DNA from: Octopus vulgaris
Lineage: Eukaryota
Direction of reading: 5' to 3'
DNA: 64,000 nt
Assembly: GCA_951406725.2 (NCBI GenBank)
Contig: OX597830.1
Location: 26,288,001 to 26,352,000, forward strand
Part shown: positions 1,113 to 63,504 of the stretch, in pieces
Numbering within the stretch: position 1 is the first letter of the stretch
Layout of the letters: every line of letters starts with the position of its first letter
Translations under genes and position numbers: made by a program
Notes under the pieces: model-generated
What the model saw: the letters and a program-made list of their open reading frames with translations, nothing else
Databases searched by the model: none
Told to the model about the DNA's origin: nothing

Positions 1113-1595
1113 GACTACCAGTCTGATAAGGGTACACCAGGCACATGCATCACGACCATGTGTGCGCGATATGGTGATCTCATATCAAGATAAACAGCAC
1201 ATGACCTTGCAGGTAGGGCCCAATTAGAATTTTCTTCAGGTCGAGTAGCCCATCCCACTCGAAAGGTCCCTGAATAAGGGTTGTTTAAGGATGTTGAACA
1301 AAACACCCATATCTCCAGAGGTGAATTATTCAAACCCCAAAGAATCCCTCTCAACACACGGCTATGATGCTCCCCCACTACTTCTGCTCGTGATCAGAGA
1401 TGCACATATCGCCAGCCACTAAGGGACATGCTCAACTGGTTAAGGTCAAACAACTGACAAGAAAATCTGTGGTATTGAGCAGAATATTTGCTGTCGCCCA
1501 TTTTTTATACCAAGACAAAACAATGTACATGATAACACTTCCAATCAGTTAAGATTAGAAGCCACGAGAGCCACTGCCTGGTACTGCATCAGGGC

Positions 1596-1597
<2 letters not shown>
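1113..1597. mobile_element. Dispersed non-coding element (family C) abutting (ATT)n; second copy at 51080-51608
   Basis: The two copies align over about 480 bp. The 51 kb copy has (ATT)n on both sides. Confidence 0.75.
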
Positions 1598-1683
<86 letters not shown>

Positions 1684-1839
1684 ATTATTATTATTATTAT
1701 TCATGTCACTGAATATTATTATTATTCAGGATTTATAAGCCCTAAAATTCACTCTATAATTGCCCACAGGCAATAATAATAATAACAACATCGAAAAATA
1801 CCTTAGGAATGAGAACCCAGGTTCGAAATTTCTTCCAAT

Positions 1840-1883
1840 ACACCTGATGAAGGCTGGAGGGTATATCTGCCGTAACGTTGTGT
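1840..1883 (+). ncRNA. Degenerate hammerhead motif in a PLE-like repeat next to (ATT)n
   Basis: ACAC|CTGATGA|aggctg...ctgcc|GTAA|C GTT|GTGT. GAAA is mutated to GTAA. Confidence 0.55.
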
Positions 1884-3643
1884 TAACAAAAACCAAGATG
1901 AGAACAAATATCCGTCTAATGTAAATATATTCGCCATGATAAATCGCTAGCCACACATTCTTTATTTTCTCTCCTTCTTTCTTTCTGTCTTCCTTTCTGT
2001 GGGCTCGAAATGTTAAAGACTTTTTCACTTCCTGAGCGTTAAACTAATACATCTGTTTGTTGTCTACACCACCAGTCTATATATAGATTTTTTTCCCCTG
2101 TAAATTTGGATTTATTCCCTAATATTTATTATATATATATATATATATATTCTAAGTTAAACTCTAATACAGTGCAATAAATACAATTACAGTGTAATAA
2201 ATATTCATGGAATAAATTTGCGTGTACATACACTATGGGCTACTCTGGTAGTTGAGAGGAATATAAATAGAATAGTAAACGGCAGAATAGCTTGAAATTT
2301 TTATGTGTTGCATAATTAATTGTTTTCTACAGCTGTTTCCGTAGAGTAAAACATCATTACTATTTAATTACGTAATTAACATAATATCACATTTAAATGT
2401 AATGAATAATCAAATTCTGTATCAAGAACACTGCACAAATAAATACGCAATATACACGCATAAGCACAGGAAGCCCGTGCAGTTAAGAGGCTCGGTTTGC
2501 GTCCACGTGATTTCGGGTCCTGTCCCACTTCGCGGCACATTTGGGCAAGTGTGTTTTACTGTAACACCGGGTAGGTCAATGCCTTGTTAGTGAATTGGTA
2601 GATGGAAACTGAGTGGAAGCTAGTTACATACATAAATATATCTGTGTGTATGTGTGTGTGTCTTTGTTTTTCTCCATCACCATTGATTGACAACCAGTGT
2701 TGGTTTGTCTGCGCCTACGTTACTTAATGTTTCAGAATTACAGGTATACTAAATGTATAAGGGAGTAATTCGGAAACAATACCTCTAATTCAATTACCCT
2801 TTATATTCGATACCGTATTTTACAATATCTTATGCTTATCCACCCGTAATGAAGAGAATAGTTCTTTTTATTGCTCTAATATATACTGTGTACGTCTACC
2901 CGTATGATAATCTAATTCCTTTTATATATTTATTTAGAATGTCTTTATCATGACTTTCTAAACAATATACTTAGAATATTCTTTTTTTTTCTTATATACT
3001 AAAGTATCCCATTATTAGGTTCTAAGTTTAATTTCTATCCTTATTCTATATATTGATTTAAATTTTCTCAATTTAATATTATAAATTTGCTAAGTTATAA
3101 ATTACTGCCTTCCATATCCTTCAATTCTAATTTTCACCACTAAAGTTTATGACTTATCTCTTTTGGTTTTTCATTATCTTCTTCTTTATTTGATAATCTA
3201 AGTATTGGCCAAGCCTATCCTTCTTTCTTCCAGTTATCACCCCTTCCCATCAGACATTTTCTTACTACCAGCCTAACAACGTACCCTCTTATGTAGATAA
3301 AGCTATATATATGGTTCCAGTATAGTTGATTGACATTAATTGATATATCCCCATTTACTAGGCAACTCTCTATGGATTTAATTCTAAATGGCTGAAGACT
3401 ACATACTACATAAGGTTTTCTAAATCTAAGTAACTACATCACCACTCCTGTTATCTTGACGTTCCACTATTCCTTCTGCTACACTCTAAATAATAGTAGG
3501 CTTAACAAGGTATGCATTATTTTTTTTATAAATTCAATCTGCCAGAGATATAACAAAAGGAAACAATGTTAATATTTTGTTTTCCATTATTGATGTGCAT
3601 TTATTAAAAAAAATGTTTATACTTTATGTTTGAAGTCTATGCG

Positions 3644-3731
3644 TTCATCCGACGAGAATGATTTCTTTCAAATTGATGTAAATGTTTCCATTAATCAATT
3701 AAATGGAGTCACTTGAAGTGGACGTAATGAA
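3644..3731 (+). ncRNA. Degenerate hammerhead motif (same family as 29046-29131 and 63556-63642)
   Basis: TTCAT|CCGACGA|...aaattgatgtaa...|GAAG tggac GTA|ATGAA. The stem II interior is shared with the other two copies. Confidence 0.45.
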
Positions 3732-3985
3732 TTGATACCTGTACATCTTTGTTACTTATTTATGTTTTGTTCACCTAAATTGGAATCTGCACTTCGGAAA
3801 TACTAAAGAAAGCACATTTATATAAAGGGCATGGCTGAATTACCAAGAGTGAATATCTTCACATAGGTGGATTGCGTTGTCTACACACACGACAGGATTA
3901 TTGGGTACAAATACCACTACACAGAGTCTTGTTATTCGATATTCAAAAAATATCATTCGTGTCTGCAGAGTATACCGAACATGTA

Positions 3986-4784
3986 AGAAAACTGACAGCT
4001 GTGAGTTGAAAGGTCTGTATCTGTGTGTTCGATTATGTTTACTGTAGGGAAAGGAAAGTAGATAGCGAAAGGGAGAAAGAATAGGGCGAGGTGAGAGGCA
4101 ACGCAAGAATGGATAGTAGTAATTGGGAATATAAGAAAATCTTTTTGACTATTGGGGTGAAATATATCAAAAATTTTTTTGGGAAATCGAGGGGTTATCT
4201 ATATTAGTCACTATTTATATGAATGAAAGGTGTGTCTTTTCCAGTGTAAGCACCTGTAGGATCTTTCGACGATTGTATTTATTAAAGGGCCTTTGGCGAA
4301 TAAAATATGAAAAAGGCAGAAAATTTTGAATGAAAGGTGTGTCTTTTCCAGTGTAAGCACCTGTAGGATCTTTCGACGATTGTGTTTATTAAAGGGCCTT
4401 TGGCGAATAAAATATGATAAAGGCAGAAAATTTTGTGGCATCTGTAATTCCGAACTTTTTCATATTTTGTTCGCCAAAGGCCCTTTAATGAACACAATCG
4501 TCGAAAGATCCTACAGGTGCTTACACTGGAAAAGACACACCTTTCATTCATATAAATAGTGACTAATATAGATAACCCCTCGATTTCCAAAAACAATTTT
4601 GCTATATTTCACCCCAATAGTCATAAAAGATTTTCTTATGTTCCCAATTACTACTATCCATTCTTGCGTTGCCTCTCACCTCGCCCAATTCTTTCTCCCT
4701 TTCGCTATCTACTTTCCTTTCCCTACAGTAAACATAATCGAACACACAGATACAGACCTTTCAACTCACAGCTGTCAGTTTTCT
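3986..4784. repeat. Long imperfect palindrome with ~330-bp arms and an internal 108-bp tandem duplication
   Basis: 3986-4314 is the reverse complement of 4456-4784. 4220-4327 is repeated at 4328-4435. The ORF track shows mirrored ORFs. Confidence 0.9.
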
Positions 4785-6895: not shown

Positions 6896-8167
6896 CAGAA
6901 AATAATACTCAAAATATTCATAGAAGTTTTATCCTTTTGTTAAAATTCCATTCTTGATAATCTTCTTGATTATCCGAAATTTTAACTTTATACAATAAGA
7001 CAATATTGTTTGAAATGATCTTTAGAAATTACTTGATTTATCTCTTTCTTAAATGGCTCTACCCTCCTGAGACCATTATATAAATAACCCTTCTAAACAA
7101 GTACTTGTGTAGGGAGTAACAATAATAACTTCTTAAACCTATAATATAGCCCTTAATTTAAAAAAAAAGATTAGTGTAAAATATGATTGTTCCATGACTT
7201 AAATATTCCTTTAGCCGATACCAAACATCAGTCTTTTATAGATATTAGCTAAATAAGTAAATATATAATTTTTAGTCTAATATATCATACTTTTTCTAAA
7301 AATCTTCTCTATTGGTGTTAACAAGCTACATATACTTTACCATAGTATTAGTAATTAAGCTATTTTATTTCCTTTTCTATGGAGCTCTGCCCTACTTGAT
7401 TATTTTTAAAAAAATTTTTATTCTTTTATAATTAGCCTTTATTTATTTATAAGATTAATCTAATTTTTGTTTCTCTATAAATTCATACTTAGCTTTATAT
7501 AAAACTAAACTAATATACTCACTACTTATAAAAAAATACTGCTTAGATTAAAATTTTATTAATATATAATTACCCCAAAACTTCTTTATTAATACCAGTA
7601 TATACCAATTAAACAATATTCACAGATACCCTCTGATGAGTTAGTATTTAAATATACAATATGTATAAATATTAAACTATAATTTCTTTTCCTCCCTCTA
7701 TTGCGGTAAAAGTTTGGTATATACTCAAAAGTATTCATAAATTTCTATCCTTTGTTATAATCTTCTTAATGAGCCTTTCAATAAACCTAAACTTTAACTG
7801 TATACATAGCAACATTGTTTTAAAATATTTAACTATAGTACCACATCATAAAACTTTTCCTGTTCTATTATCAATAGTCTGCTAGTGGGCGACCCCCTTA
7901 ATTATCAGCTAACATCTTGTTTTAAGTTTTCCCTTACTAAACCTAATGATATTGTTTATAATAAATCTTGATTTTTTATGACTATACCAACTAGAATGTC
8001 TGTCTACTCACTGAAACCTACCCCTAACAGATACTGTCCTCTGTTCTCTCAGCCTTAGATATACAAGGGATTTGATAAACTAGTCTATAAATTAAAACTG
8101 ACCCATGAAGATAAAAAGTCTTCTTGACAATCTTAGTAACTTCTATGCTGAAATAGAGACATGTTCT

Positions 8168-8220
<53 letters not shown>

Positions 8221-8249
8221 CCCCCCTCTCTCTCTCTCTCTCTCTCTTT

Positions 8250-9073
8250 GGAAGAAACTCCTCACTAAAACAGCCATACTCTCTTCCTTCAAGGGAACCG
8301 CTCACAGCATCTAACAATATCAGAGACCTGGGTGTAATTGTTGATGACGATCTCAGTTGGAGTGCACACATCAACAAGAAGGTCGATATAGCTCGTAGGA
8401 TGAGTTCCTGGATCTTAAGAACTTTCCGGTCCAGAGAACAAGGTGTCATCATATCACTTTTTTCCTCCTTTGTACGGCCACACCTTGAATACTGCTGCCC
8501 ACTGTGGTCTCCTCACACAAGACAAAACATCTCCAGAATTGAGTCATCCCAGAGGGCACTCACTAAACGCATTGTAGGCATGGCTGCTCTCGATTATTGG
8601 GATCGCCTTAAAGCCTTGAAACTTTACTCCCTCCAGCGTCGCCGTGAGCGGTACATCATTTGTACGATGTGGAAAATATACCGCCAACTTTGCCCAAACG
8701 ACCTAAACATTAGCTTCAAGGTTCATCCAAGACTTGGACCACGGGCTATACGTCCCCTGCCCAATTCAAGATCACAACATACATGTACACTGCAACATAA
8801 TTTCTTTTCCTCAACAGGCCCTGCCCTATTTAACATTGTCCCGAGAGAGATCAAAGAGGAAAAGGATCCCATCAACTTTAAACAGAGTCTGGATAGATTC
8901 CTTCAAAGAATACCAGATAAGCCACCCATAATTGGATACAACTCACCCAACAAGAACTCACTACTTGAACAAAACTTGACTTAAACAGGATTCAAATAAT
9001 CCTATCAGGTGGTGCTATTAAGTTAGACATGGCCTGGACCAATCTTTGGTCGAAACATATCTAAGTTTATCTA

Positions 9074-13800: not shown

Positions 13801-14527
13801 TATGAAGAAACAAAACAAAAATAAAGTACTAATGATGATTTATTCGACTAAATACTGCAGAACAGTGCTCCAGCATGGCTGCAGTCCATGAACTGAAATG
13901 AGAAAAGAAAAAAAGTAAAAGGATGAAAGAGAAGGAGGATCAAAGGAATTTTTCTGTAAAAAGAAACGAATACTATGTCCAAAGACAAGACTGATATTCG
14001 ATATCGCACTGCACTCAAATACCGTGAATTATTTTCCTGCTCTGTAAAACAATACACACACCACGTACTCCCACAGATCTCACGTAATTCACTCTTTGTA
14101 TTATGTATCAAGGCCTGCAACATATTAAAATAAGACAAAAAAGGCGCTCTTATAACTGGTTATCTGCTTTAGCCAATGAGCCATAATGTAATTCTTTCTG
14201 TTATATGGACTATGAATCTACCACAAACTCCAGCCAATGACAAGTTAACAGAAACCCTCTGCGTCTATTCAAACACACAAACACGTTCTACCCCAATACA
14301 TCTCTTTCCTCTCTTAACATCAGTCATTTGGTTTTCCCAAATTTTATAGCCTTTGTTTTTCAAGCTTAAGTTATTTTATTTTATTTTAGTTTTGACGGGT
14401 TTTTTTATGAGGGCGCATCTAGATTAAAAGAATACTCTGAGAGTCGATCAAAATGTTTTGTGGGTCTTTGTGCTCTGAGTTCAAATCCCATCCAAAATCA
14501 ACTTTGCCATTTATTATTCCTTTATTA

Positions 14528-15330
14528 GTCACAATGGGAAGTTCTGATTCAGCAGAAATAGCTGATTTGGTCGGTATATATATACTTAATGAAATGGCAG
14601 ACCAGTTCCCATGCATCAATGGGGGTCTATATCGTGATGATTGTTTACTCTACCTTCAAAATGTTTCTAACCACAAAGTACAAAAGGTTAAGAATAGTTT
14701 AGTTAAGTTTTTCCGTACAATGGGCTTAGGCATCGTTTTTGAGGATGATGTAACGAAAGCCAACTTTTTAGACATTACACTTAACCTACACAATAATTCG
14801 TACTTCCAATACCACAAACCATCAATCAATCTTAAGTGTATTAGCCAATCCAGTAATCATTCTAGAGCAATTACTAAGAATTTAGTTTAAAATATTTAAT
14901 TGAGATTGTCTAAGTTATCTTGTCTGTGTTACTGTTATTCTCCTTTTCCCGTCTTTTACTGTTTATATTTTGTACTGTCTTTACTATCCTGTTTTTGTTA
15001 ACATTTTACCCCACCGCAAAAAAATCTCAAATTTTATTTAATTTGCTTTTCGCGGGAAGGAACGTTTCACCGAAGTCGCGTCTCGCCTTCACCTTCGATA
15101 GCGGAGTAGATGAAACCATGGCGACTGAAGAAGGGGAATTTTCGTTGTGTTATATGTCCTGTACTCGTTGTTTGAGAAAAATGTCCAGTTCCTTGGTTTT
15201 GTGTTTATGTTTTCGTTTCTCATTGTGTTCGACGTATTTTTGGTGTCCTATACCCATATATGCATGTGTATATACATGTAGATGTAGGTACGTACATATA
15301 TGTATGTATATATGCATATGTTTTATTTAT
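14528..15330 (+). mobile_element. Penelope-like element fragment: RT core remnant joined to pLTR-like sequence
   Basis: VTMGSSDSAEIADLVGIY..GGLYRDD..NFLDITLNL..YHKP..SNH is a PLE-type RT. Stops follow at about 14890. The sequence at 14920-15330 resembles 31985-32450. Confidence 0.8.
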
Positions 15331-27551: not shown

Positions 27552-27930
27552 ATGGTTCAATCCAAGAAATATAACATAGGAGATGGTGTGTACACCATAC
27601 ATAGTACAGATAATTTAGTAGTAAACGGTGAAACCCCTCCTCAACCTCCGGCCGAAGACGAATTGGATGACTTCGAATTCATTGGGCTCAGTTTGGACGA
27701 AGTTCGAGAACGATGTGAAGAGAGAAAATGGCGTATGATGCGTAATGTGGTTCTTTTCGCAACGGTCATTTTGATTGCTGCTCTCCTAATCACTGCAGTT
27801 GCGTCAGCATTGAATCACCCGAGGTGTAGAGAGCAGCCTCACGTGAACTGGTTCGATGATGCAGTCTATTACAGGATCTATGTTCCGATGTTCCAAGATA
27901 GCGATTCAGATTGTGTTGGCGATATCAAAG
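27552..27930 (+). CDS. SLC3 heavy-chain (rBAT/4F2hc-like) gene, coding exon 1: cytoplasmic N-terminus, TM helix, Cys92, start of GH13-like domain
   Basis: Acceptor tttttcgtAG at 27546-47, ATG at 27552, donor GT at 27931 (phase 1). Translation GLSLDEV..KWRMMRNVVLFATVILIAALLITAVASALNHPRCREQPHVNWF..YYRIYVPMFQDSDSDCVGDIKG fits the SLC3 N-terminal/TM/PRC pattern and the GH13 beta1 region. Confidence 0.92.
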
Positions 27931-28131
27931 GTGCAAACTATTTCTTCTTTTCCAGTTTCCTTCATTTTTTAATGTTTTTTGTTTGTTGTTTGAAATTATT
28001 TTCTTATTTTCTGTTTTTGAAACAAAAGATTTTTCTTTTCATTTCATTTCTCCATTCATTTATGGTATATTTTCTTTCTGAGTAGTTTACTTGAAAAATT
28101 CTTTCGTTACTGAAATCCTATTTGAGTTTTA

Positions 28132-28676
28132 TTGGGTTGTCCGGAAAGTTCGTACCGATTTATCTTTCGACTTATTTTATAACATGGTTGAGTCCATAAA
28201 ATAGGATTTGACTACACCTCCATTTAGAGCACAGTTTAAGCTATCTTTTCGTGGAAGAAGGTTTATGTTCCTATAACCTGTGTTAATGCTGTAACCCTTT
28301 AAAATGGAAGATAAGAAAATTCATTTTCGGCTCTTGATGCTTTGGGAACCAGACAAAGATTGCTGCAGCTCGGCTGGGATGTGTTACCCCACCCTCCATA
28401 TTCACCAGATATTGCTCCTTCGGATTTCCACTCTGCAGAATAGTCCTAATGGTAAAAATTTTAATTCTTTGAATGACGTAAAAAGATAGCTTGATGAATT
28501 CTTTGCCATGAAACCACCTCAATTCTGGGAAGAGGGTATTTTCAAGTTAAAGGTAAGATGGAGACACATTGTGCAACAAAATGGTTCATATTTGGTTAAC
28601 TAAAATTGTAATAGCAAGTATTTATTGACCTTTTTCATTCCTTTAAAAATCGGCACGAACTTTCCGGACAACCCAA
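28132..28676 (+). mobile_element. Internally deleted mariner element
   Basis: ~30-bp TIRs ttgggttgtccggaaagttcgt..gattt, TA at both ends, transposase remnants MEDKKIHFR and WDVLPHPPYSPDIAPSDFH. Confidence 0.9.
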
Positions 28677-28716
28677 TACACACACACACGCATGCATACA
28701 TACATACATACATACA

Positions 28717-28805
<89 letters not shown>

Positions 28806-29045
28806 AAATTCAGTTGAATTAGGTACTTAAGTTGAAGCACCAAGTTAGTGCGGTATTAACCGTACATCTCCCAGTAAGGTGAATAAAGTCAAAATCAGCA
28901 ACAGGATATCAAGAGGTGATGCAGTACGACCTTTTCAAGCGACTCCATTTATGGTATATTTTCCTTCTGTTCTATTAGAAGATTTGAGTAAAATTATATT
29001 AATGTGTCCTACTGATTAAAAAAATTCTATTAATTTATTTATTTA

Positions 29046-29131
29046 TGCAGCTGAGTATAGCACTGCATTTAAATTGATGTAATGATTGCATTGTTCAATT
29101 AAATGGAACCGCTTGAAACGGTTGTACTGCA
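29046..29131 (+). ncRNA. Degenerate hammerhead motif inside the fold-back element at 28882-29166
   Basis: TGCAG|CTGAGTA|..aaattgatgtaa..cgctt|GAAA|cggtt GTA|CTGCA. G8 is mutated. Confidence 0.45.
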
Positions 29132-29158
29132 ACCACTTGATATCCTGTTGCTTATTTT

Positions 29159-29208
<50 letters not shown>

Positions 29209-29212
<4 letters not shown>

Positions 29213-30626
29213 ATAGTTATCGCCATACTAATATGGCATTCTTATAAAAATAAGAAAAAAGCTGTCCGCTTATTAGCTCCATGAGGCCATCGCCTTAAGT
29301 TAGCTATTTGATACACAAACTGTATCCATATAACCTTCGAACAAGGGAGGTCAGTCGCTCCACACTACTTGACCGGCAGCTACAGACGCGTTTCGGGGTA
29401 TTGCCCTTTTCAATGCAGCGTAGCCAGCCAGTAGGTGTCGCTTCCGACAATCTCTGTTCGATGGTTTTATTTACCTAGTTTCGGTGGAATACATCCACTT
29501 GTTTTCAATAATAGAAATATTAAAATAACTAAGTCTCTCTAAAAGAGAACAGCGGCAGCGTTCCCGGAAAATAATAGTTATCGCCATACTAATAAAACCA
29601 TCGAACAGAGATTGTCGGAAGCGACACCTACTGGCTGGCTACGCTGCATTGAAAAGGGGCAATACCCCGAAACGCGTCTGTAGCTGCCGGTCAAGTAGTG
29701 TGGAGCGACTGACCTCCCTTGTTCGAAGGTTATATGGATACAGTTTGTGTATCAAATAGCTAACTTAAGGCGATGGCCTCATGGAGCTAATAAGCGGACA
29801 GCTTTTTTCTTATTTTTATAAGAATGCCATATTAGTATGGCGATAACTATTATTTTCCGGGAACGCTGCCGCTGTTCTCTTTTAGAGAGACTTAGTTATT
29901 TTAATATTTCTATTATTGAAAACAAGTGGATGTATTCCACCGAAACTAGGTAAATAAAACCATCGAACAGAGATTGTCGGAAGCGACACCTACTGGCTGG
30001 CTACGCTGCATTGAAAAGGGGCAATACCCCGAAACGCGTCTGTAGCTGCCGGTCAAGTAGTGTGGAGCGACTGACCTCCCTTGTTCGAAGGTTATATGGA
30101 TACAGTTTGTGTATCAAATAGATAACTTAAGGCGATGGCCTCATGGAGCTAATAAGCGGACAGCTTTTTTCTTATTTTTATAAGAATGCCATATTAGTAT
30201 GGCGATAACTATTATTTTCCGGGAAGGCTGCCGCTGTTCTCTTTTAGAGAGACTTAGTTATTTTAATATTTCTATTATTGAAAACAAGTGGATGTATTCC
30301 ACCGAAACTAGGTAAATAAAACCATCGAACAGAGATTGTCGGAAGCGACACCTACTGGCTGGCTACGCTGCATTGAAAAGGGGCAATACCCCGAAACGCG
30401 TCTGTAGCTGCCGGTCAAGTAGTGTGGAGCGACTGACCTCCCTTGTTCGAAGGTTATATGGATACAGTTTGTGTATCAAATAGCTAACTTAAGGCGATGG
30501 CCTCATGGAGCTAATAAGCGGACAGCTTTTTTCTTATTTTTATAAGAATGCCATATTAGTATGGCGATAACTATTATTTTCCGGGAACGCTGCCGCTGTT
30601 CTCTTTTAGAGAGACTTAGTTATTTT

Positions 30627-30635
<9 letters not shown>
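29209..30635. mobile_element. Retrozyme/Penelope-like array: about 1.07 inverted units (29209-29594) followed by about 2.9 tandem 362-bp units (29591-30635), each carrying a hammerhead motif
   Basis: The unit start aataaaaccatcgaac recurs at 29591, 29953 and 30315. Copies differ at only a few bases. The inverted unit has a 361-bp period. Flanks are (TA)n and (CT)n(TA)n. Confidence 0.9.
29643..29684 (+). ncRNA. Minimal type I hammerhead ribozyme with U3-A8 core (also at 30005-30046 +, 30367-30408 +, 29379-29419 -)
   Basis: GCTGCA|TTGAAAA|GGGG caata CCCC|GAAA|CGC GTC|TGTAGC: 6-bp stem I (one G-U), 4-bp stem II, palindromic stem III ACGCGT, GUC cleavage triplet. Confidence 0.8.
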
Positions 30636-30716
<81 letters not shown>

Positions 30717-30776
30717 ATATAATATTTATAGACATACACATTCACATATATACATATACATACATACATATGTATG

Positions 30777-30846
<70 letters not shown>

Positions 30847-31002
30847 TAACTGCGTAAAAATCAATACGAAGAGTACTCCATCCAAATACAGTTCAATATT
30901 ACTGAGCATTTCAACTACATATACTTATCGCGTTGCTAATAATTTCCAGTACATCAGGTGCATATATATATATATATATATATGATATTTCTTCTTTTAC
31001 AG

Positions 31003-31182
31003 GGGTCGAGATGCAACTGGATTATTTGAAGGATATCGGTGTGGATGCTATATCTCTGAGTCCCATATTTGATGGAACATCCGTTGACAGCGACCTCAAT
31101 GTTGTCAACCATACGACTATTGACAATAAATTCGGCACTGAAGATGACATTAAGAGCCTTATTGCAGCCGCACACAAAAAAG
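31003..31182 (+). CDS. SLC3-like gene, coding exon 2 (180 nt)
   Basis: cttttacAG|GG ... AAAG|GTaatc, phase 1 to 1. Encodes GVEMQLDYLKDIGVDAISLSPIF..IDNKFGTEDDIKSLIAAAHKK, a typical GH13 segment. Confidence 0.93.
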
Positions 31183-31309
31183 GTAATCAAGTTAATATTG
31201 TAAAAGCAATAGTAAAAGTTGTTGTTCCTGTTGTTATTGTTATTGTTATTATTTGTCTTACACTATGATCTGGTGGAGCAATCCTCTGTTGAAATGAATA
31301 TGAAATTTA

Positions 31310-38471: not shown

Positions 38472-40221
38472 CTATGTTTGACTTTTGCTTTATATTTGTA
38501 CAAGTTGGCTCCAGGTCTCACCCAGAGACCTCAAGAGACAACAGGCTGGAAGTCCACGTTGTTGTTATGCCTAGGGTGCCATATACTTGGGGTTTCTTTG
38601 GTGTTGTACTAATGAATGTCTAACAAATAAATAAATAAATAAATAAAATAAAAAAACATTAAAAATAAATGAAATAAAAATGGTTTGTTTTAAACCTTGA
38701 GATTACATAGAAAGTATTTTACGTAAGATATGAGCAGTTCCCATGAGCACTATCTTTTGAATTTCTGCCATTTTGGGGTTTCCTGGTATCTGAGTTAGGT
38801 AGCAATCAGCCCCTTTCGCTATCATTCCCAGGGCACCTATGACAACAGGTATTGTTTTAGTCTTCAGCTTCCACATTTTGCTAATTTCTATTTCAAGATC
38901 TTTATATTTGCTCAGTTTTTGGTAGGTCTCGACAGATACGTTTATATCGATTGGGACAGTCATATCAATGAGGAGGCATGTTCTTTGTCTGAAGTCTTTC
39001 AATATGATGTCTGGCCTATTTGCATCTATCTTTCTGTCAGTTTGAATGGTGAAGTTCCAGAGGAGTGAGATGTGGTCATTTTCAAGCACTGGAGGTGGTT
39101 TGTGTTCCCACCAGTTTTTTTCATGGGGCAAATCCAGGTTTTTGCAAATTACCCAGTGAATATATTGTGCAGCTCTATCATGCCTGTTGAGATAGTCTGT
39201 AGGCGCTAGAAGACTGCACTTGGAGACAACATGATCAATGGTTTCATTTTGTTGTTGACATACACGACATGTTGGGCTACTGCCGTTCTTTGATATGTTG
39301 GCCTGGTAGTTTCTTGCTGGTATGCATTGATCTTGAGCTGCTATGATAAACCCCTCTGTTTCAGATTTTAAGCCCGAGGCCATTATCCGTTGATGGGTCA
39401 AAGCTTTGTCAATATCTGCATTATTCGCTCTCTTTGGGTATTTGCCATAGAGAGGTTTTTCTTGCCATTTATCATTCAGAATATCTAAGGCCGCAGTTTT
39501 AGCACGGGTTTTCATGCGCTTAGCTTTTTCTGTGCTTGTTTCTTGCGTGTCTATCTCTAATTCCGAAATTTGTTGTATTCGGAATTCACTTAGGTATTCC
39601 TTTGCCTGTTTTGTTACTGAGTATGATGCTTTCTTGTTTTCATGTTTTGAGACAAGTTTTAACATCCAGTCCTCAGACTTTTTCAGGTAGGTGTTTAGGC
39701 CAATTGTAGCAATCTTCATTATTATTGCCAGTTGTAAAAGACCACGGCCTACCTCTTTTCTTGGCAGATAAAGTCGTTCTGTATCTGCCTTAGGGTGGTG
39801 CATTCATATTTTTCTGTCAAGCTGACATATTTCAGTTAACGATATTGAAACTGTAAGTCACGACTGGTATTGCTAATGCATTGATCGCTTCGATCCTGTT
39901 TCTTGCATTCAGCTCTGTCTTGAGTATTGCTCTCACTCTTCGATAACATTCTCTCCTGATCCTTTCCTCCATCTCTGAATGCCTTATTTTGAGAGAGGTA
40001 TTAAGGCTAAACAAAAGAGAAGTGGTGATAGTGAGTCACCCTGGAAAATGCCACATGAACTTTTTACATCACTAGCATTTAGAGATTCATTGTCACTGTT
40101 CAAAGTTAGTGTGGTTCTCCATGATCTCATACTTACAGTCAAAAAGTTTCGCAGAGTAGGTGCTATCTTATACATTTCCAGGCATTTCTTAATCCAGTTA
40201 TGTGGTAGGCTATCAAAAGCG
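38472..40221 (-). mobile_element. R4/Dong-like non-LTR retrotransposon (RT remnants, CCHC, restriction-like endonuclease), internally deleted
   Basis: AFDSLPH and GIFQGDSLSPLLF (RT); CRVC..ETIDHVVSKC, RHD, NRPDI, KLSKY (RLE). The 3' end runs into (TAA)n. Confidence 0.88.
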
Positions 40222-41768: not shown

Positions 41769-41861
41769 CCTCCTTCTTCCCTTCTTCCCTGAGCGTCCAA
41801 TAATACTTTATTTGTTCCACGTCCTCGCGTTGCTGTGTTTTTTGTGTTTTCTTGTTTGGAT

Positions 41862-41972
<111 letters not shown>

Positions 41973-42014: not shown

Positions 42015-42149
42015 TGTATGTATGTATGTATGTATTATAACAAAAGGCAGGTGTTTCCACACAGGAAAAAATATAGGAAAATGTGTTGTTGAAAATGCAC
42101 CTAAATTTCAAAAACTCGCAAATATTTAAAATACATTTATTTACATATA

Positions 42150-42191
42150 TACCAAACTAGTTTCAACAATATTTTTTGTTTATCAATGGTA
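42150..42191 (-). ncRNA. Hammerhead motif, U3-A8 core (inverted mutated copy at 43876-43917 +)
   Basis: Minus strand reads TACCA|TTGATAA|acaa aaaata ttgtt|GAAA|cta GTT|TGGTA, with palindrome ACTAGT. Confidence 0.55.
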
Positions 42192-42689
42192 AAAGTTTAA
42201 AATCAGAAAAAACGTCTTTAAAAGTTTCAATGTTGACAAATTAAAATGTTTCAATGTTGATAAATTAACATGTTCAAAACAGAAGGTGCAAGTTTGAATG
42301 TTCATAGCAGTCAATAAAATTAAAACTGTATATCAGTTTGTTTGAATGTACAAAGTTCATTAATTTTAGTGGTGATCGACAAGTCATACTGAGAAAAACA
42401 AGTGTGAAATGAAATAGTAAAAGAAGAGAATTTAGTTTTCAGTTTTCTCAGATCCTCTTCTAATACACGATTTCGCTTGTAGTGGTATGTTTTGGGATCA
42501 GATGAATGTATAATTTTTTTTCCGCGAGCGGATCTGATTCTTGATTCGTTAAAATTCTGGTGACGTTTTTTCTTCCGTAGTCAAGCTTGTCGTTCTGCTT
42601 GGCTGGTTTCCTTGTGGATATGTCATTCCGGTTGGTTGGTTGGTTCTCTTAATGGGTAATTTCGTTGTATTTGCTGAAGTTCGGTTTTG

Positions 42690-43284: not shown

Positions 43285-43710
43285 TAAACTGTTTTTAAAA
43301 AAGAAATTTTTTGTTGTTCCGGGTTGTTTCTTTTTTTGTGTGTTAAAATTGAGACTTTTCTTTTTACTGCTTTTTCTTCTTTCTAAAAGATATTCAGCTG
43401 ACAAAAACTTTCTTTAAATGCAATAATGAAAAACGTGAGAACCAGATCATGTTTTAACTTTATTCAACTTATATATTATTCTATACACATTTACACAAAT
43501 ACGGAAAAATTTGACAGCGTGTGTACCGTTGGCGCTTTTTTTTCCTCTGTCTTCCCTTCTCTAGATCTTTCCTTCTCCTATGTTTCCGACGAAGAGCTCC
43601 GCTCGAAACGTTAAACCCTCCTTCTTTCCTTCTTTCCTGAGCGTCCAATAATACTAAATTTGTTCCACGTCCTCGCGTTGTTGTGTAATTTTGTGCTTTC
43701 TTGTTTGGAT

Positions 43711-43781
<71 letters not shown>

Positions 43782-44340
43782 ATAACAAAAGCGTGGGTGG
43801 TGTTTCCACGAAGGAAAACATTTTAATTTGTCAACATTGAAACTTTTAAAGATGTTTTTTCTAATTTTAAACTTTTACCATTAATAAACAAAAAATATTG
43901 TTGAAACTAGTTTGGTATATATGTAAATAAATGTATTTTAAACATTTACGATTTTTGGAAATTTAGGTGCATTTTCAATAACACATTTTCCTATATTTTT
44001 TCCTGTGTGGAAACACCCCCCTTTTGTTTCATATATATATATATATATCTTTATCTATATATTTATATTTATATATAATTAAGGTTAGCTGAGTTAGAGG
44101 TTAAAATAACCGTCTAAGGGATAGAAGTATCCGTTACACTACCGGTATATTATATATGTTTAACCATGGGCATACATATGCAGGCATATTATGCTCATAA
44201 ATTAGAGGTAACGACAAAGATAAAGATGAGTTTATCAATAATCAAGATTTAAAGAAAACAGAAAATGGAGAAATATTGATGAACAACAATTGAATGATAT
44301 CAATTATTATTTATTAATTCAATACAAATAGACTGCATCC

Positions 44341-62263: not shown

Positions 62264-63504
62264 GACACGCGCTGAGACTGCGGCATCTCTGGCTCTATGT
62301 AGACGACGGTGAACAGGTGTGGTCGCCGTTTGTGAGGCACGCTTTCCCGCAGCTCGTCTCCATGACCGAACTGCAGTCGTGGATCAAAAGAGGCCGAGGA
62401 AGGGCGAATGGCACCGCGAGTGTCGCGTTGCTCTCAAGCAACTCTGCCGTCCTGGGTCGACCTTAAGTGACTTCAACACAACCAAAGCATTCTATAGGGG
62501 TTTAGTGGAGGGGAGGTACGACGACGAGCTCGGGGCGAACCTGGACGTCGACGAGGAGTACCTGACCCGCCTGTTCAGGACGACTTTCGGGCCAGGGCCC
62601 ATGGACAACTTCCAGAGATCCCTGGCCTGGCAGTGCTACCGAGAAGCGCTACCCGTTCGGGATAAGCTCTACAGACACGGCTCGAGAAACACGGGGCCGA
62701 CCTGCCCGAGATGCGGTCAGAGCGACGAAACCGTTCTGCACGCACTCGTTCAGTGTCCAACAATTTCCGACCTGTGGGCTTATGTCGAACAACTGCTGTC
62801 ACGTGTGGGACGAGTCGGTTTATCAGCTGAGTCTATCGTCAATATTGTCACGCCTCCTTCCTTCAAACGGGAAGGAAGAGCTATTTTCATCATCCTTGTG
62901 GCTATGGCGAAAGAATGTATCTGGTGGACGCGTCTGAAAGGATTGGAGACAAACACTTTCCTCTCTGGTCAATCTCTCATCAACTTCTTCAAGTACCACT
63001 TGAAAAGGAAAGTGAGAGTAGAGAGGCAAGTTTTGTCTAGCGAATGCTTTAAAAAAAGATGGGTGAATGTAGCAAGAATGGCACGTATGAATGACGAAGC
63101 CACCTTGAGCATAGTCCTATGAACCCAGAAATCGAAAACAGAGAGTTGCTTATTTGCAAAAAAAAAAAAAAAAAAGAAATATAAAATGTGACATCATTGA
63201 CCGAGGTTACCGTGGTCTTTTCCGTAGGCTTTTCTTTGCACGGGTAAACCTCACCTGTCCTCCCCTTTTCACTTCATATTGACATTTCTGTGATAACGAT
63301 CCCTATTGATCAATTTTTTTCCTCCCCCTTTTTTTAAACCCCCTTTTTTTTGTCCTCTTTCTCTCCTTTTACGATCCCTTTTGATCGAAACTCCCCTTCC
63401 TTTTTTTTTTTTTTTTTTTTTTTTTTCTTAAACCTTCAAAAGAAAAGCTCTACCTTGTAATTTGTTCTATCTGTGTGCAGCCCTGTGTGGCTAATAAAGA
63501 AACA
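62264..63504 (+). mobile_element. 5'-truncated Tx1/L1-clade retrotransposon inserted in (TCTA)n
   Basis: ORF 62319-63122 has a zf-RVT-like LPVRDKL..CPRCGQSDETVLHALVQC. Pyrimidine-rich 3' UTR, AATAAA at 63493, TCTA repeats on both sides. Confidence 0.85.

What the first reader, a model, noticed from the sequence alone, without database searches (positions are those of the whole stretch)
29586..29600. The tandem array begins exactly at the predicted cleavage site of a second hammerhead-like motif
Seen: each unit holds a second, less regular motif (29911-29957: TATT-A-TTGAAAA-caa-GTGG-atgtatt-CCAC-c-GAAA-ctag-GTA|AATAAAA). The forward array starts at 29591 with AATAAAACC, the first base after that GUA triplet, and joins the inverted unit through a 4-nt AATA microhomology. 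Inference: the reverse-transcribed template had a self-cleaved 5' end, which would be a footprint of ribozyme activity and imply two ribozymes per unit. The microhomology blurs the breakpoint by 4 nt and this motif has a non-standard core, so coincidence is possible.
Basis: partly seen in the sequence, partly recalled or inferred. Interest (0 to 1): 0.7.

Follow-up and report, generated by a model that had tools for sequence, protein, structure and literature searches.

The report
Retrozyme array starts at second hammerhead
A small, protein-free jumping RNA element carries one well-formed and one worn self-cutting ribozyme motif, and this copy begins exactly where the worn one would cut, which may be a trace of RNA self-cleavage but may also be an RNA-folding or chance effect.

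Summary
Observation confirmed. A 362-bp unit is inserted as 2.89 forward copies (29591-30635) plus a head-to-head inverted copy (29594-29209) in a (TA)n tract, joined through AATA. The first forward base equals the predicted cut of motif 2. The element fits a non-LTR retrozyme (non-autonomous Penelope-like element) with a well-formed type I hammerhead (HHR1). Motif 2 is hammerhead-derived (3 of 20,000 shuffles match), and its U3-A8 core is a published variant. It is, however, imperfect next to the core, masked in the predicted fold, and has lost A15.1 in 8-32% of family contig depth. The single junction has a 2-6% chance probability. In contigs of four public runs, 2 of 9 usable junction ends fall within 2 nt of this site and none at HHR1's; both are single, ambiguous contigs. 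The site is also a 2-nt hinge between two RNA helices, so stalling predicts the same break. Odds: cleavage footprint 0.40, folding hinge 0.25, chance 0.27, transcript start 0.08. No cleavage is shown. The scan holds no look-alike of this sequence; a similar idea was rejected in another genome.

The parts
29164..29209 (.). left (TA)n tract, target side of the inverted copy's 3' end
29209..29594 (-). inverted copy, 1.06 units (unit 240-362, 1-264); 3' end points outward; one G lost in HHR1 helix II
29591..29594 (.). AATA microhomology at the head-to-head junction; its left edge is the predicted motif-2 cut register
29591..30635 (+). forward array, 2 x 362 + 321 bp; two private substitutions (30122, 30226)
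29643..29684 (+). HHR1, copy 1: type I hammerhead, U3-A8 core at 29649, 6-bp helix I, 4-bp helix II, palindromic helix III, cut after 29678
30005..30046 (+). HHR1, copy 2 (cut after 30040)
30367..30408 (+). HHR1, copy 3 (cut after 30402)
29379..29419 (-). HHR1 in the inverted copy, helix II shortened by a 1-nt deletion
29911..29956 (+). motif 2, copy 1: degenerate minimal-type hammerhead, U3-A8 core at 29916, predicted cut after 29952
30273..30318 (+). motif 2, copy 2 (predicted cut after 30314), read through intact
29468..29513 (-). motif 2 in the inverted copy, read through intact
29890..29906 (+). strand predicted to pair with and mask motif 2's core and helix III (most pair probabilities 0.84-0.98)
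29954..30100 (+). predicted long rod with HHR1 at its tip; begins 1 nt after the motif-2 cut
29826..29841 (+). near-palindromic hairpin (unit 236-251) in which the inverted copy's 5' end lies
30633..30840 (.). right (CT)n(TA)n tract at the forward array's 3' end
27600..31184 (+). host SLC3A-like gene: exon pieces 27600-27950 and 31002-31184 flank the insert, which lies between them, forward array in sense
   Evidence: Pfam SLC3A2_N, Alpha-amylase; intron status inferred

Best explanation
The insert is a young copy of a high-copy non-LTR retrozyme, a non-autonomous passenger of Penelope-like elements (PLEs); I put about 0.9 on this identity. Inferred steps: (1) a PLE protein cut both strands in a (TA)n tract; (2) it primed two cDNAs inward from two preferred internal start sites, unit ~321-326 and ~264, the PLE 'tail' pattern; (3) the two cDNA 3' ends, ending in complementary TATT and AATA, annealed and primed second strands, giving the head-to-head layout. 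The forward cDNA ended at unit 1 because its template had an end, or a cleavage/ligation scar, at motif 2's GUA: motif 2 is a worn PLE-type minimal hammerhead that cuts only occasionally. Shown: layout, motifs, microhomology, recurrent 3' ends, two further junctions at the site. Inferred: every enzymatic step, including cleavage. The confidence given is for the cleavage-footprint part.
For: Array start flush with the cut; 2.2% of 4-nt-microhomology junctions would be compatible. The array is a cut-to-cut trimer lacking its last 41 nt, and its 3' end (unit 321) lies within 5 nt of the family's recurrent (TA)n-joined end behind 29916 (33 contigs in X1, 12 in X5). The site was fixed, where 2 of 9 usable junction ends enter at 29951-29952 and 29953; P about 0.006 if uniform. 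One of these joins 29858, near the other 3' start site (29855), to 29953 across 7 extra letters, as run-off plus template jump would. Motif not chance; U3-A8 core known (PMC4209133). Precedent: R2 elements cleaved at their own 5' end give variable 5' junctions, postulated to be primed by chance microhomology (PMC3774820 abstract). Head-to-head copies, tail and microsatellite targets are PLE traits (PMC8557442, PMC3846280). PLE protein cuts and extends both strands and starts at two internal sites (PMC11167929).
Against: Motif 2 has an A.A mismatch at 2.1-1.1 unless A29915 bulges, and no G10.1-C11.1 pair. It is masked in the predicted dimer fold: helix I probability 0.00, gap 4-10 kcal/mol against 1.1 for HHR1. 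A15.1>G is 8.5-32% of depth in all four runs. Alleles that restore pairs 2.1-1.1 and 10.1-11.1 did not lower the folding gap. HHR1 has no junction at its cut (0 of 9), and the insert passes 4 HHR1 and 3 motif-2 sites uncut. Neither of the two inversion joints touches a cut site, nor does the inverted copy's own 5' end. Both supporting joints are single contigs with 28-29 letters on the short side. One is flagged 'between: not known'. In the other the 7 extra letters match the native upstream heptamer at 4 of 7, so a deletion in a diverged copy fits too. In the one PLE tested in vitro, uncut RNA was the main substrate and no RNA-seq reads began at the hammerhead cut (PMC11167929).
Confidence: 0.4

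Rival explanations
1. Coincidence. The forward cDNA was 5'-truncated at an arbitrary point, perhaps during rolling-circle copying of an HHR1-made circle, and joined by an AT-rich microhomology that happens to overlap the motif-2 site. Motif 2 is an inactive relic.
For: 2.2-5.6% chance for one post-hoc junction; AATA occurs 5 times per unit. 7 of 9 junction ends lie elsewhere. The circle model (PMC7229834) explains read-through of all seven ribozyme sites and offers no 5' end. A second hammerhead-bearing repeat in the window has its head-to-head junction about 95 nt upstream of its cut.
Against: Two more junctions at the same pre-specified site in runs X2 and X4; P about 0.006 under a uniform null, which ignores AT and alignment-edge bias.
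Confidence: 0.27
2. Structure-defined hotspot without cleavage. Reverse transcriptase leaving the long HHR1 rod stalls or switches template at the 3' base of the hairpin that masks motif 2, and so ends at 29952-29953.
For: 29952-29953 are the only two unpaired bases between the masking helix (ends 29951) and the rod (starts 29954). One supporting joint enters at 29951-29952, slightly upstream of the cut. The inverted copy's 5' end also lies in a hairpin. That reverse transcriptases pause at helix bases is my own knowledge, not from a call.
Against: Seven such helix ends exist per unit and no listed junction entry lies 1-2 nt 3' of the other six, though 30056 is 2 nt past the one at 30054 on an inversion joint of unknown polarity. 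The enzyme passed this hinge three times in this insert. All folds are predictions.
Confidence: 0.25
3. Unit 1 is a transcription start or another processed 5' end (the sequence there is AATAAA), unrelated to ribozyme chemistry.
For: PLE terminal repeats are reported to hold promoter-like motifs (PMC3846280 passage). Full-length cDNAs would end at a start site.
Against: No TATA-like element 25-30 nt upstream (read). The match to the GUA register would then be a second coincidence. No RNA data.
Confidence: 0.08

Closest known systems
Metazoan non-LTR retrozymes (Cervera and de la Pena 2020, PMC7229834; Li et al. bioRxiv 10.64898/2026.07.22.740005)
   Same: Non-coding tandem unit of 362 bp (mussel repeats are 350-390 bp), canonical-sized type I hammerhead in each unit, strongly self-paired predicted circle (z -6.7 against base shuffles), high copy number.
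   Different: Each unit has a second same-strand hammerhead-type motif 88 nt upstream of the first, and both cores are U3-A8. I found no such two-motif unit in the texts read. circRNA and cleavage are untested here.
PLE pseudo-LTR minimal hammerheads (Cervera and de la Pena 2014, PMC4209133)
   Same: Motif 2 has a short helix I, a longer helix II, unpaired nucleotides after A9, near-palindromic loop 3 and the U3-A8 covariation.
   Different: Two to three unpaired nucleotides after A9 rather than one, no G10.1-C11.1 pair, bulge at 2.1; no linked PLE open reading frame was found.
Complex PLE insertions with an inverted 5'-truncated copy and tail (PMC8557442, PMC3846280, PMC11167929)
   Same: Head-to-head inverted copy, microsatellite target, microhomology join, two 3' ends of which one is longer.
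   Different: End offset is 57-62 nt against the reported 30-40 nt. No palindrome spans the junction. Published work saw no RNA ends at the hammerhead cut.
R2 retrotransposon HDV-like ribozyme defining the 5' junction (PMC3774820)
   Same: The proposed logic: a self-cleaved 5' end is copied to run-off and joined by chance microhomology.
   Different: Different ribozyme and element class; shown in vitro for R2, not shown here.

Membership tests
non-LTR retrozyme | short non-coding tandem repeat (about 150-450 bp), GC below 50% | tested here: met
   362-bp unit x 2.89; no ORF of 100 aa over the insert; AT-rich as read
non-LTR retrozyme | type I hammerhead with 6-bp helix I, 4-bp helix II, short palindromic helix III in each unit | tested here: met
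   HHR1 pair probabilities 0.94-1.0, folding gap 1.1 kcal/mol, helix III homodimer -7.5 kcal/mol. Rfam gave no hammerhead hit at gathering or E<10, so this rests on the descriptor and the fold
non-LTR retrozyme | [quoted passage not shown] | tested here: met
   three consecutive HHR1 copies; 1182-4459 contigs laid per run
non-LTR retrozyme | self-cleavage and accumulation of monomeric circular RNA | not testable with these tools
   only contigs were available; needs in vitro transcription and northern blot or RT-PCR
non-LTR retrozyme | target-site duplication | tested here: inconclusive
   both flanks are dinucleotide repeats
active hammerhead (motif 2) | core with 3-8 pair, G5 A6 A9, G12 A13 A14 A15.1, U16.1 H17 | tested here: met
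   window allele complete with U3-A8; A15.1>G in 8.5-32% of family depth
active hammerhead (motif 2) | helix I paired at 2.1-1.1 and G10.1-C11.1 closing helix II | tested here: not met
   A.A at 2.1-1.1 unless bulged; C opposite C or A at the base of helix II. Family alleles 29915T and 29941T would restore a pair at each place; their linkage is unknown
active hammerhead (motif 2) | catalytic fold accessible in its own context | tested here: not met
   predicted masked; gap 4.0-10.0 kcal/mol over four windows, 5.4 without the masking strand; prediction only
active hammerhead (motif 2) | cleavage after H17 | not testable with these tools
   needs a biochemical assay
PLE-mobilised insertion | head-to-head inverted 5'-truncated copy, microsatellite target, tail | tested here: met
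   tail longer than reported
PLE-mobilised insertion | sequence shared with the pseudo-LTR of an autonomous PLE | not testable with these tools
   no genome held; no relatives in the collections scanned

The most novel reading that the evidence does not exclude
A two-ribozyme retrozyme with divided labour. A worn PLE-type minimal hammerhead (motif 2), normally locked by a complementary strand, marks both where the PLE enzyme starts (3' ends at its 5' border) and where templates end (5' ends at its cut). A canonical hammerhead (HHR1) was added just downstream as a separate module. Diverged contigs that share 29875-29957 but run on unaligned, and one that skips 29958-30070, hint at a sister family with motif 2 alone. 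Genomic junctions would then record hammerhead cleavage in vivo, which I did not find shown for PLEs or retrozymes in the texts read, and would catch a retrozyme being built from a PLE end.
Probability: 0.25. Interest if true: 0.68.

Novelty: new variant of a known kind. Interest (0 to 1): 0.42.

Why it matters
The in vivo role of hammerheads in Penelope-like elements is described as unknown (PMC7761336, PMC8557442 passages). The one biochemical study found cleavage dispensable and saw no RNA ends at the cut (PMC11167929). Rolling-circle copying of circles and copying of linear cut multimers predict different 5'-end distributions. This family has thousands of contig variants and two candidate cut sites 88 nt apart, so one genome-wide junction histogram can test the two models, with HHR1 as an internal control. 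If the site is not enriched, this is an ordinary retrozyme insertion with a relic second motif.

Tried and rejected
Rfam: 0 hits at gathering in the window and only two chance hits at E 1.8 and 5 over both motifs. Genome-contig scan: 1 locus, a 20-nt chance match. Viral-contig scan: 2 loci with no similarity to the unit. Run search: no RNA holder listed, which says nothing on expression. In one search, no '5' loose end before 29953' is among the 24 rows shown of 365, and the window's own junction is not listed. Neither is informative, because unique-flank junctions are singletons and contigs drop rare forms. A type III reading of motif 2 using 29890-29915 was considered by eye and rejected: four extra bases separate the triplet from helix I. 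An HHR1/motif-2 heterodimer through helix III is unfavourable (+0.2 kcal/mol). Stronger conservation of HHR1's core than motif 2's is not significant (0 of 15 against 1 of 15 variable sites; P 0.30 and 0.68). The idea that minor alleles make motif 2 fold better was tested and not supported. 'Non-standard core' as an argument against activity is rejected, since U3-A8 is published. Lunse et al. 2017 was not available. No supplements were read; PLE consensus files there might already hold this family.

Full report
OBSERVATION. The window is microsatellite-rich animal DNA; a cephalopod host is my recalled guess from its SINE-like repeats and was not tested. The insert lies between two exon pieces of an SLC3A-like gene. 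It consists of a forward array of 2.89 units of 362 bp (29591-30635) and an inverted copy read 29594->29209 (unit 240-362, 1-264), 99.7% identical, with (TA)n on the left and (CT)n(TA)n on the right. AATA at 29591-29594 belongs to both copies, so the break has five possible positions. The leftmost is the base after the GUA of motif 2.

THE TWO MOTIFS. HHR1 (core 29649, cut after unit 88) has a 6-bp helix I, a 4-bp helix II and a palindromic helix III, the canonical animal type I layout defined in PMC4209133 (parts 1-2 of 4 read). It folds at the tip of a long rod only 1.1 kcal/mol from the catalytic arrangement. Motif 2 (core 29916) has a complete U3-A8 core. That covariation is reported in the same paper, so the core is not an argument against it, and HHR1 shares it. 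A relaxed descriptor finds both motifs but hits only 3 of 20,000 shuffled units (descriptor written after seeing the motif). Motif 2 is nonetheless imperfect. A29915 must bulge for a 4-bp helix I, and the conserved G10.1-C11.1 pair is absent. The strand 29890-29906 is predicted to pair over its core and helix III; the catalytic fold costs 4-10 kcal/mol, or 5.4 without that strand. Rfam recognises neither motif.

CHANCE. Among all 358 head-to-head junctions with 4-nt microhomology that this unit can form, 8 (2.2%) have a forward start compatible with the motif-2 cut; allowing either end and either motif gives about 5.6%. For one junction picked after the fact this is suggestive only.

FAMILY EVIDENCE. 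No genome was held. I laid contigs of 4 of the 24 listed runs (X1, X4, X2, X5; three organism codes, three studies) on one unit, 29740-30120; 4459, 2546, 1919 and 1182 contigs were laid, so this is a high-copy family. (a) 3' ends recur: (TA)n follows 29916 in 33 contigs of X1 and 12 of X5, and 29855 in one contig of X2. These match the insert's two outer ends (unit 321 and 264). The main 3' end is thus at the 5' border of motif 2's core. (b) Twelve distinct joints were listed. I dropped five: four that wrap the reference ends, and one landing on its first base. The seven left give nine candidate entry points: four skips, one of unknown kind, and both ends of two inversions. Two enter at the motif-2 site (29812>29951 with one letter of slack, X2; 29858>29953 with 7 extra letters, X4); none enters at HHR1's cut (30041). 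Under a uniform null with a 5-nt window P is about 0.006. Caveats: single contigs, 28-29 letters on the short side, likeness set to 85, one flagged 'between: not known'; in the other the extra letters match the native heptamer at 4 of 7, so a deletion in a diverged copy also fits. One run may be the window's own source. (c) Variants: motif 2 shows A15.1>G at 8.5-32% of depth, plus changes at 29915, 29924 and 29941; HHR1's core shows none, but this contrast is not significant. The alleles at 29915 and 29941 restore pairs next to the core yet do not improve the predicted fold. (d) Two contigs about 87% identical match 29875-29957 and continue unaligned, and one joint skips 29958-30070. This hints at a sister family with motif 2 but without the HHR1 segment.

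MECHANISM. The layout is that of PLE insertions: inverted 5'-truncated copy, tail and microsatellite bias (PMC8557442, PMC3846280; passages). A purified PLE protein cuts and extends both target strands and starts at two internal RNA sites (PMC11167929, parts 1-2 of 4). I infer two inward cDNAs started at unit ~321 and ~264 whose 3' ends, TATT and AATA, annealed. The unit itself fits non-LTR retrozymes (PMC7229834, parts 2-4 of 6; bioRxiv 10.64898/2026.07.22.740005, parts 1-3 of 5). Why the forward cDNA ended at unit 1 is the open point. Cleavage by motif 2 would make the array a cut-to-cut trimer short of 41 nt, and has a precedent in R2 elements (PMC3774820, abstract only). Against it: the insert reads through three motif-2 and four HHR1 sites, the better ribozyme leaves no trace, and PMC11167929 saw no RNA ends at its hammerhead cut. 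On a circular template a cut cannot end a third round, unless an abnormal ligation scar at that site stalls the enzyme (my own knowledge of viroid-like RNAs, not checked here). A strong rival is structural: 29952-29953 are the two unpaired bases between the masking hairpin and the HHR1 rod, one of seven such helix ends per unit. A second hammerhead-bearing repeat in the window has its head-to-head junction about 95 nt from its cut, so such junctions need not be cut sites. Odds: cleavage-related 0.40, chance 0.27, hinge 0.25, transcript start 0.08.

COMPARISON AND NOVELTY. It works like, and by all features testable here is, a non-LTR retrozyme moved by PLE machinery; cleavage and circular RNA are untested. 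Motif 2 fails two structural tests for an active hammerhead and is filed as hammerhead-derived, not as a proven ribozyme. I found no report of a retrozyme unit with two same-strand hammerheads, or of PLE or retrozyme junctions mapping to a hammerhead cut, in searches and the texts read. Others seen as passages: PMC7761336, PMC8490949, PMC13282606. Lunse et al. 2017 and the Terminon paper were seen only as citations, no supplements were read, and the library lacks most subscription papers, so absence is not established. The scan's notes hold no look-alike of the sequence; one note on another genome rejected a similar cut-end idea (not checked here).

VERDICT. Real observation, known kind of element, an unusual second motif, and a testable but unproven footprint. 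New variant of a known kind; interest 0.42.

Noticed in passing
window 42039-42251 (-) and 43783-44028 (+): A different hammerhead-bearing repeat: U3-A8 core at 42186 (-), 5-bp helix I, palindromic helix III, 3' end about 115 nt after the cut at a microsatellite. A 95% identical copy at 43816-44028 has a G5>A core change and a short head-to-head inverted piece of its own 3' end, with (TA)n on both sides.
   Followed up: partly
window 43580-43615 (+): Hammerhead-like remnant (core variant, short helix, GAAAC, palindromic helix III) in a repeat that ends at the (TA)n tract at 43715; a related copy lies near 41800-41866.
   Followed up: no
window 14441-14890 (+): 149-aa frame with a YRDD motif; no Pfam hit; atlas look-alikes at 0.92-0.97, some clusters carrying RVT_1 or HTH_animal in 11-27% of members. 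Possibly a PLE-type reverse transcriptase fragment.
   Followed up: partly
window 27600-31184 (+): Host SLC3A-like gene; the forward array is in the sense direction of the presumed intron, so the pre-mRNA would carry three HHR1 copies and could form double-stranded RNA with the inverted copy.
   Followed up: partly
window 29890-29951 (+): The strand upstream of motif 2 is a near-complement of its core and helix III, resembling the ribozyme-blocking folds described for plant retrozymes and viroids rather than most animal retrozymes (PMC7229834). The main 3' end falls at this hairpin's loop.
   Followed up: partly
reference 29958-30070: Diverged contigs share 29875-29957 but not the HHR1 segment: possible sister family with one motif.
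   Followed up: no
joint 29834>29777 (run X4): One end is unit 244, the same base at which the window's inverted copy breaks, in the hairpin 29826-29841; orientation not given. Possible second breakpoint hotspot.
   Followed up: no
window 38703-39803 (-), 8157-8984 (+), 62313-63122 (-): LINE-like reverse transcriptase fragments; zf-RVT below cut-off for the first, the others judged by eye.
   Followed up: no
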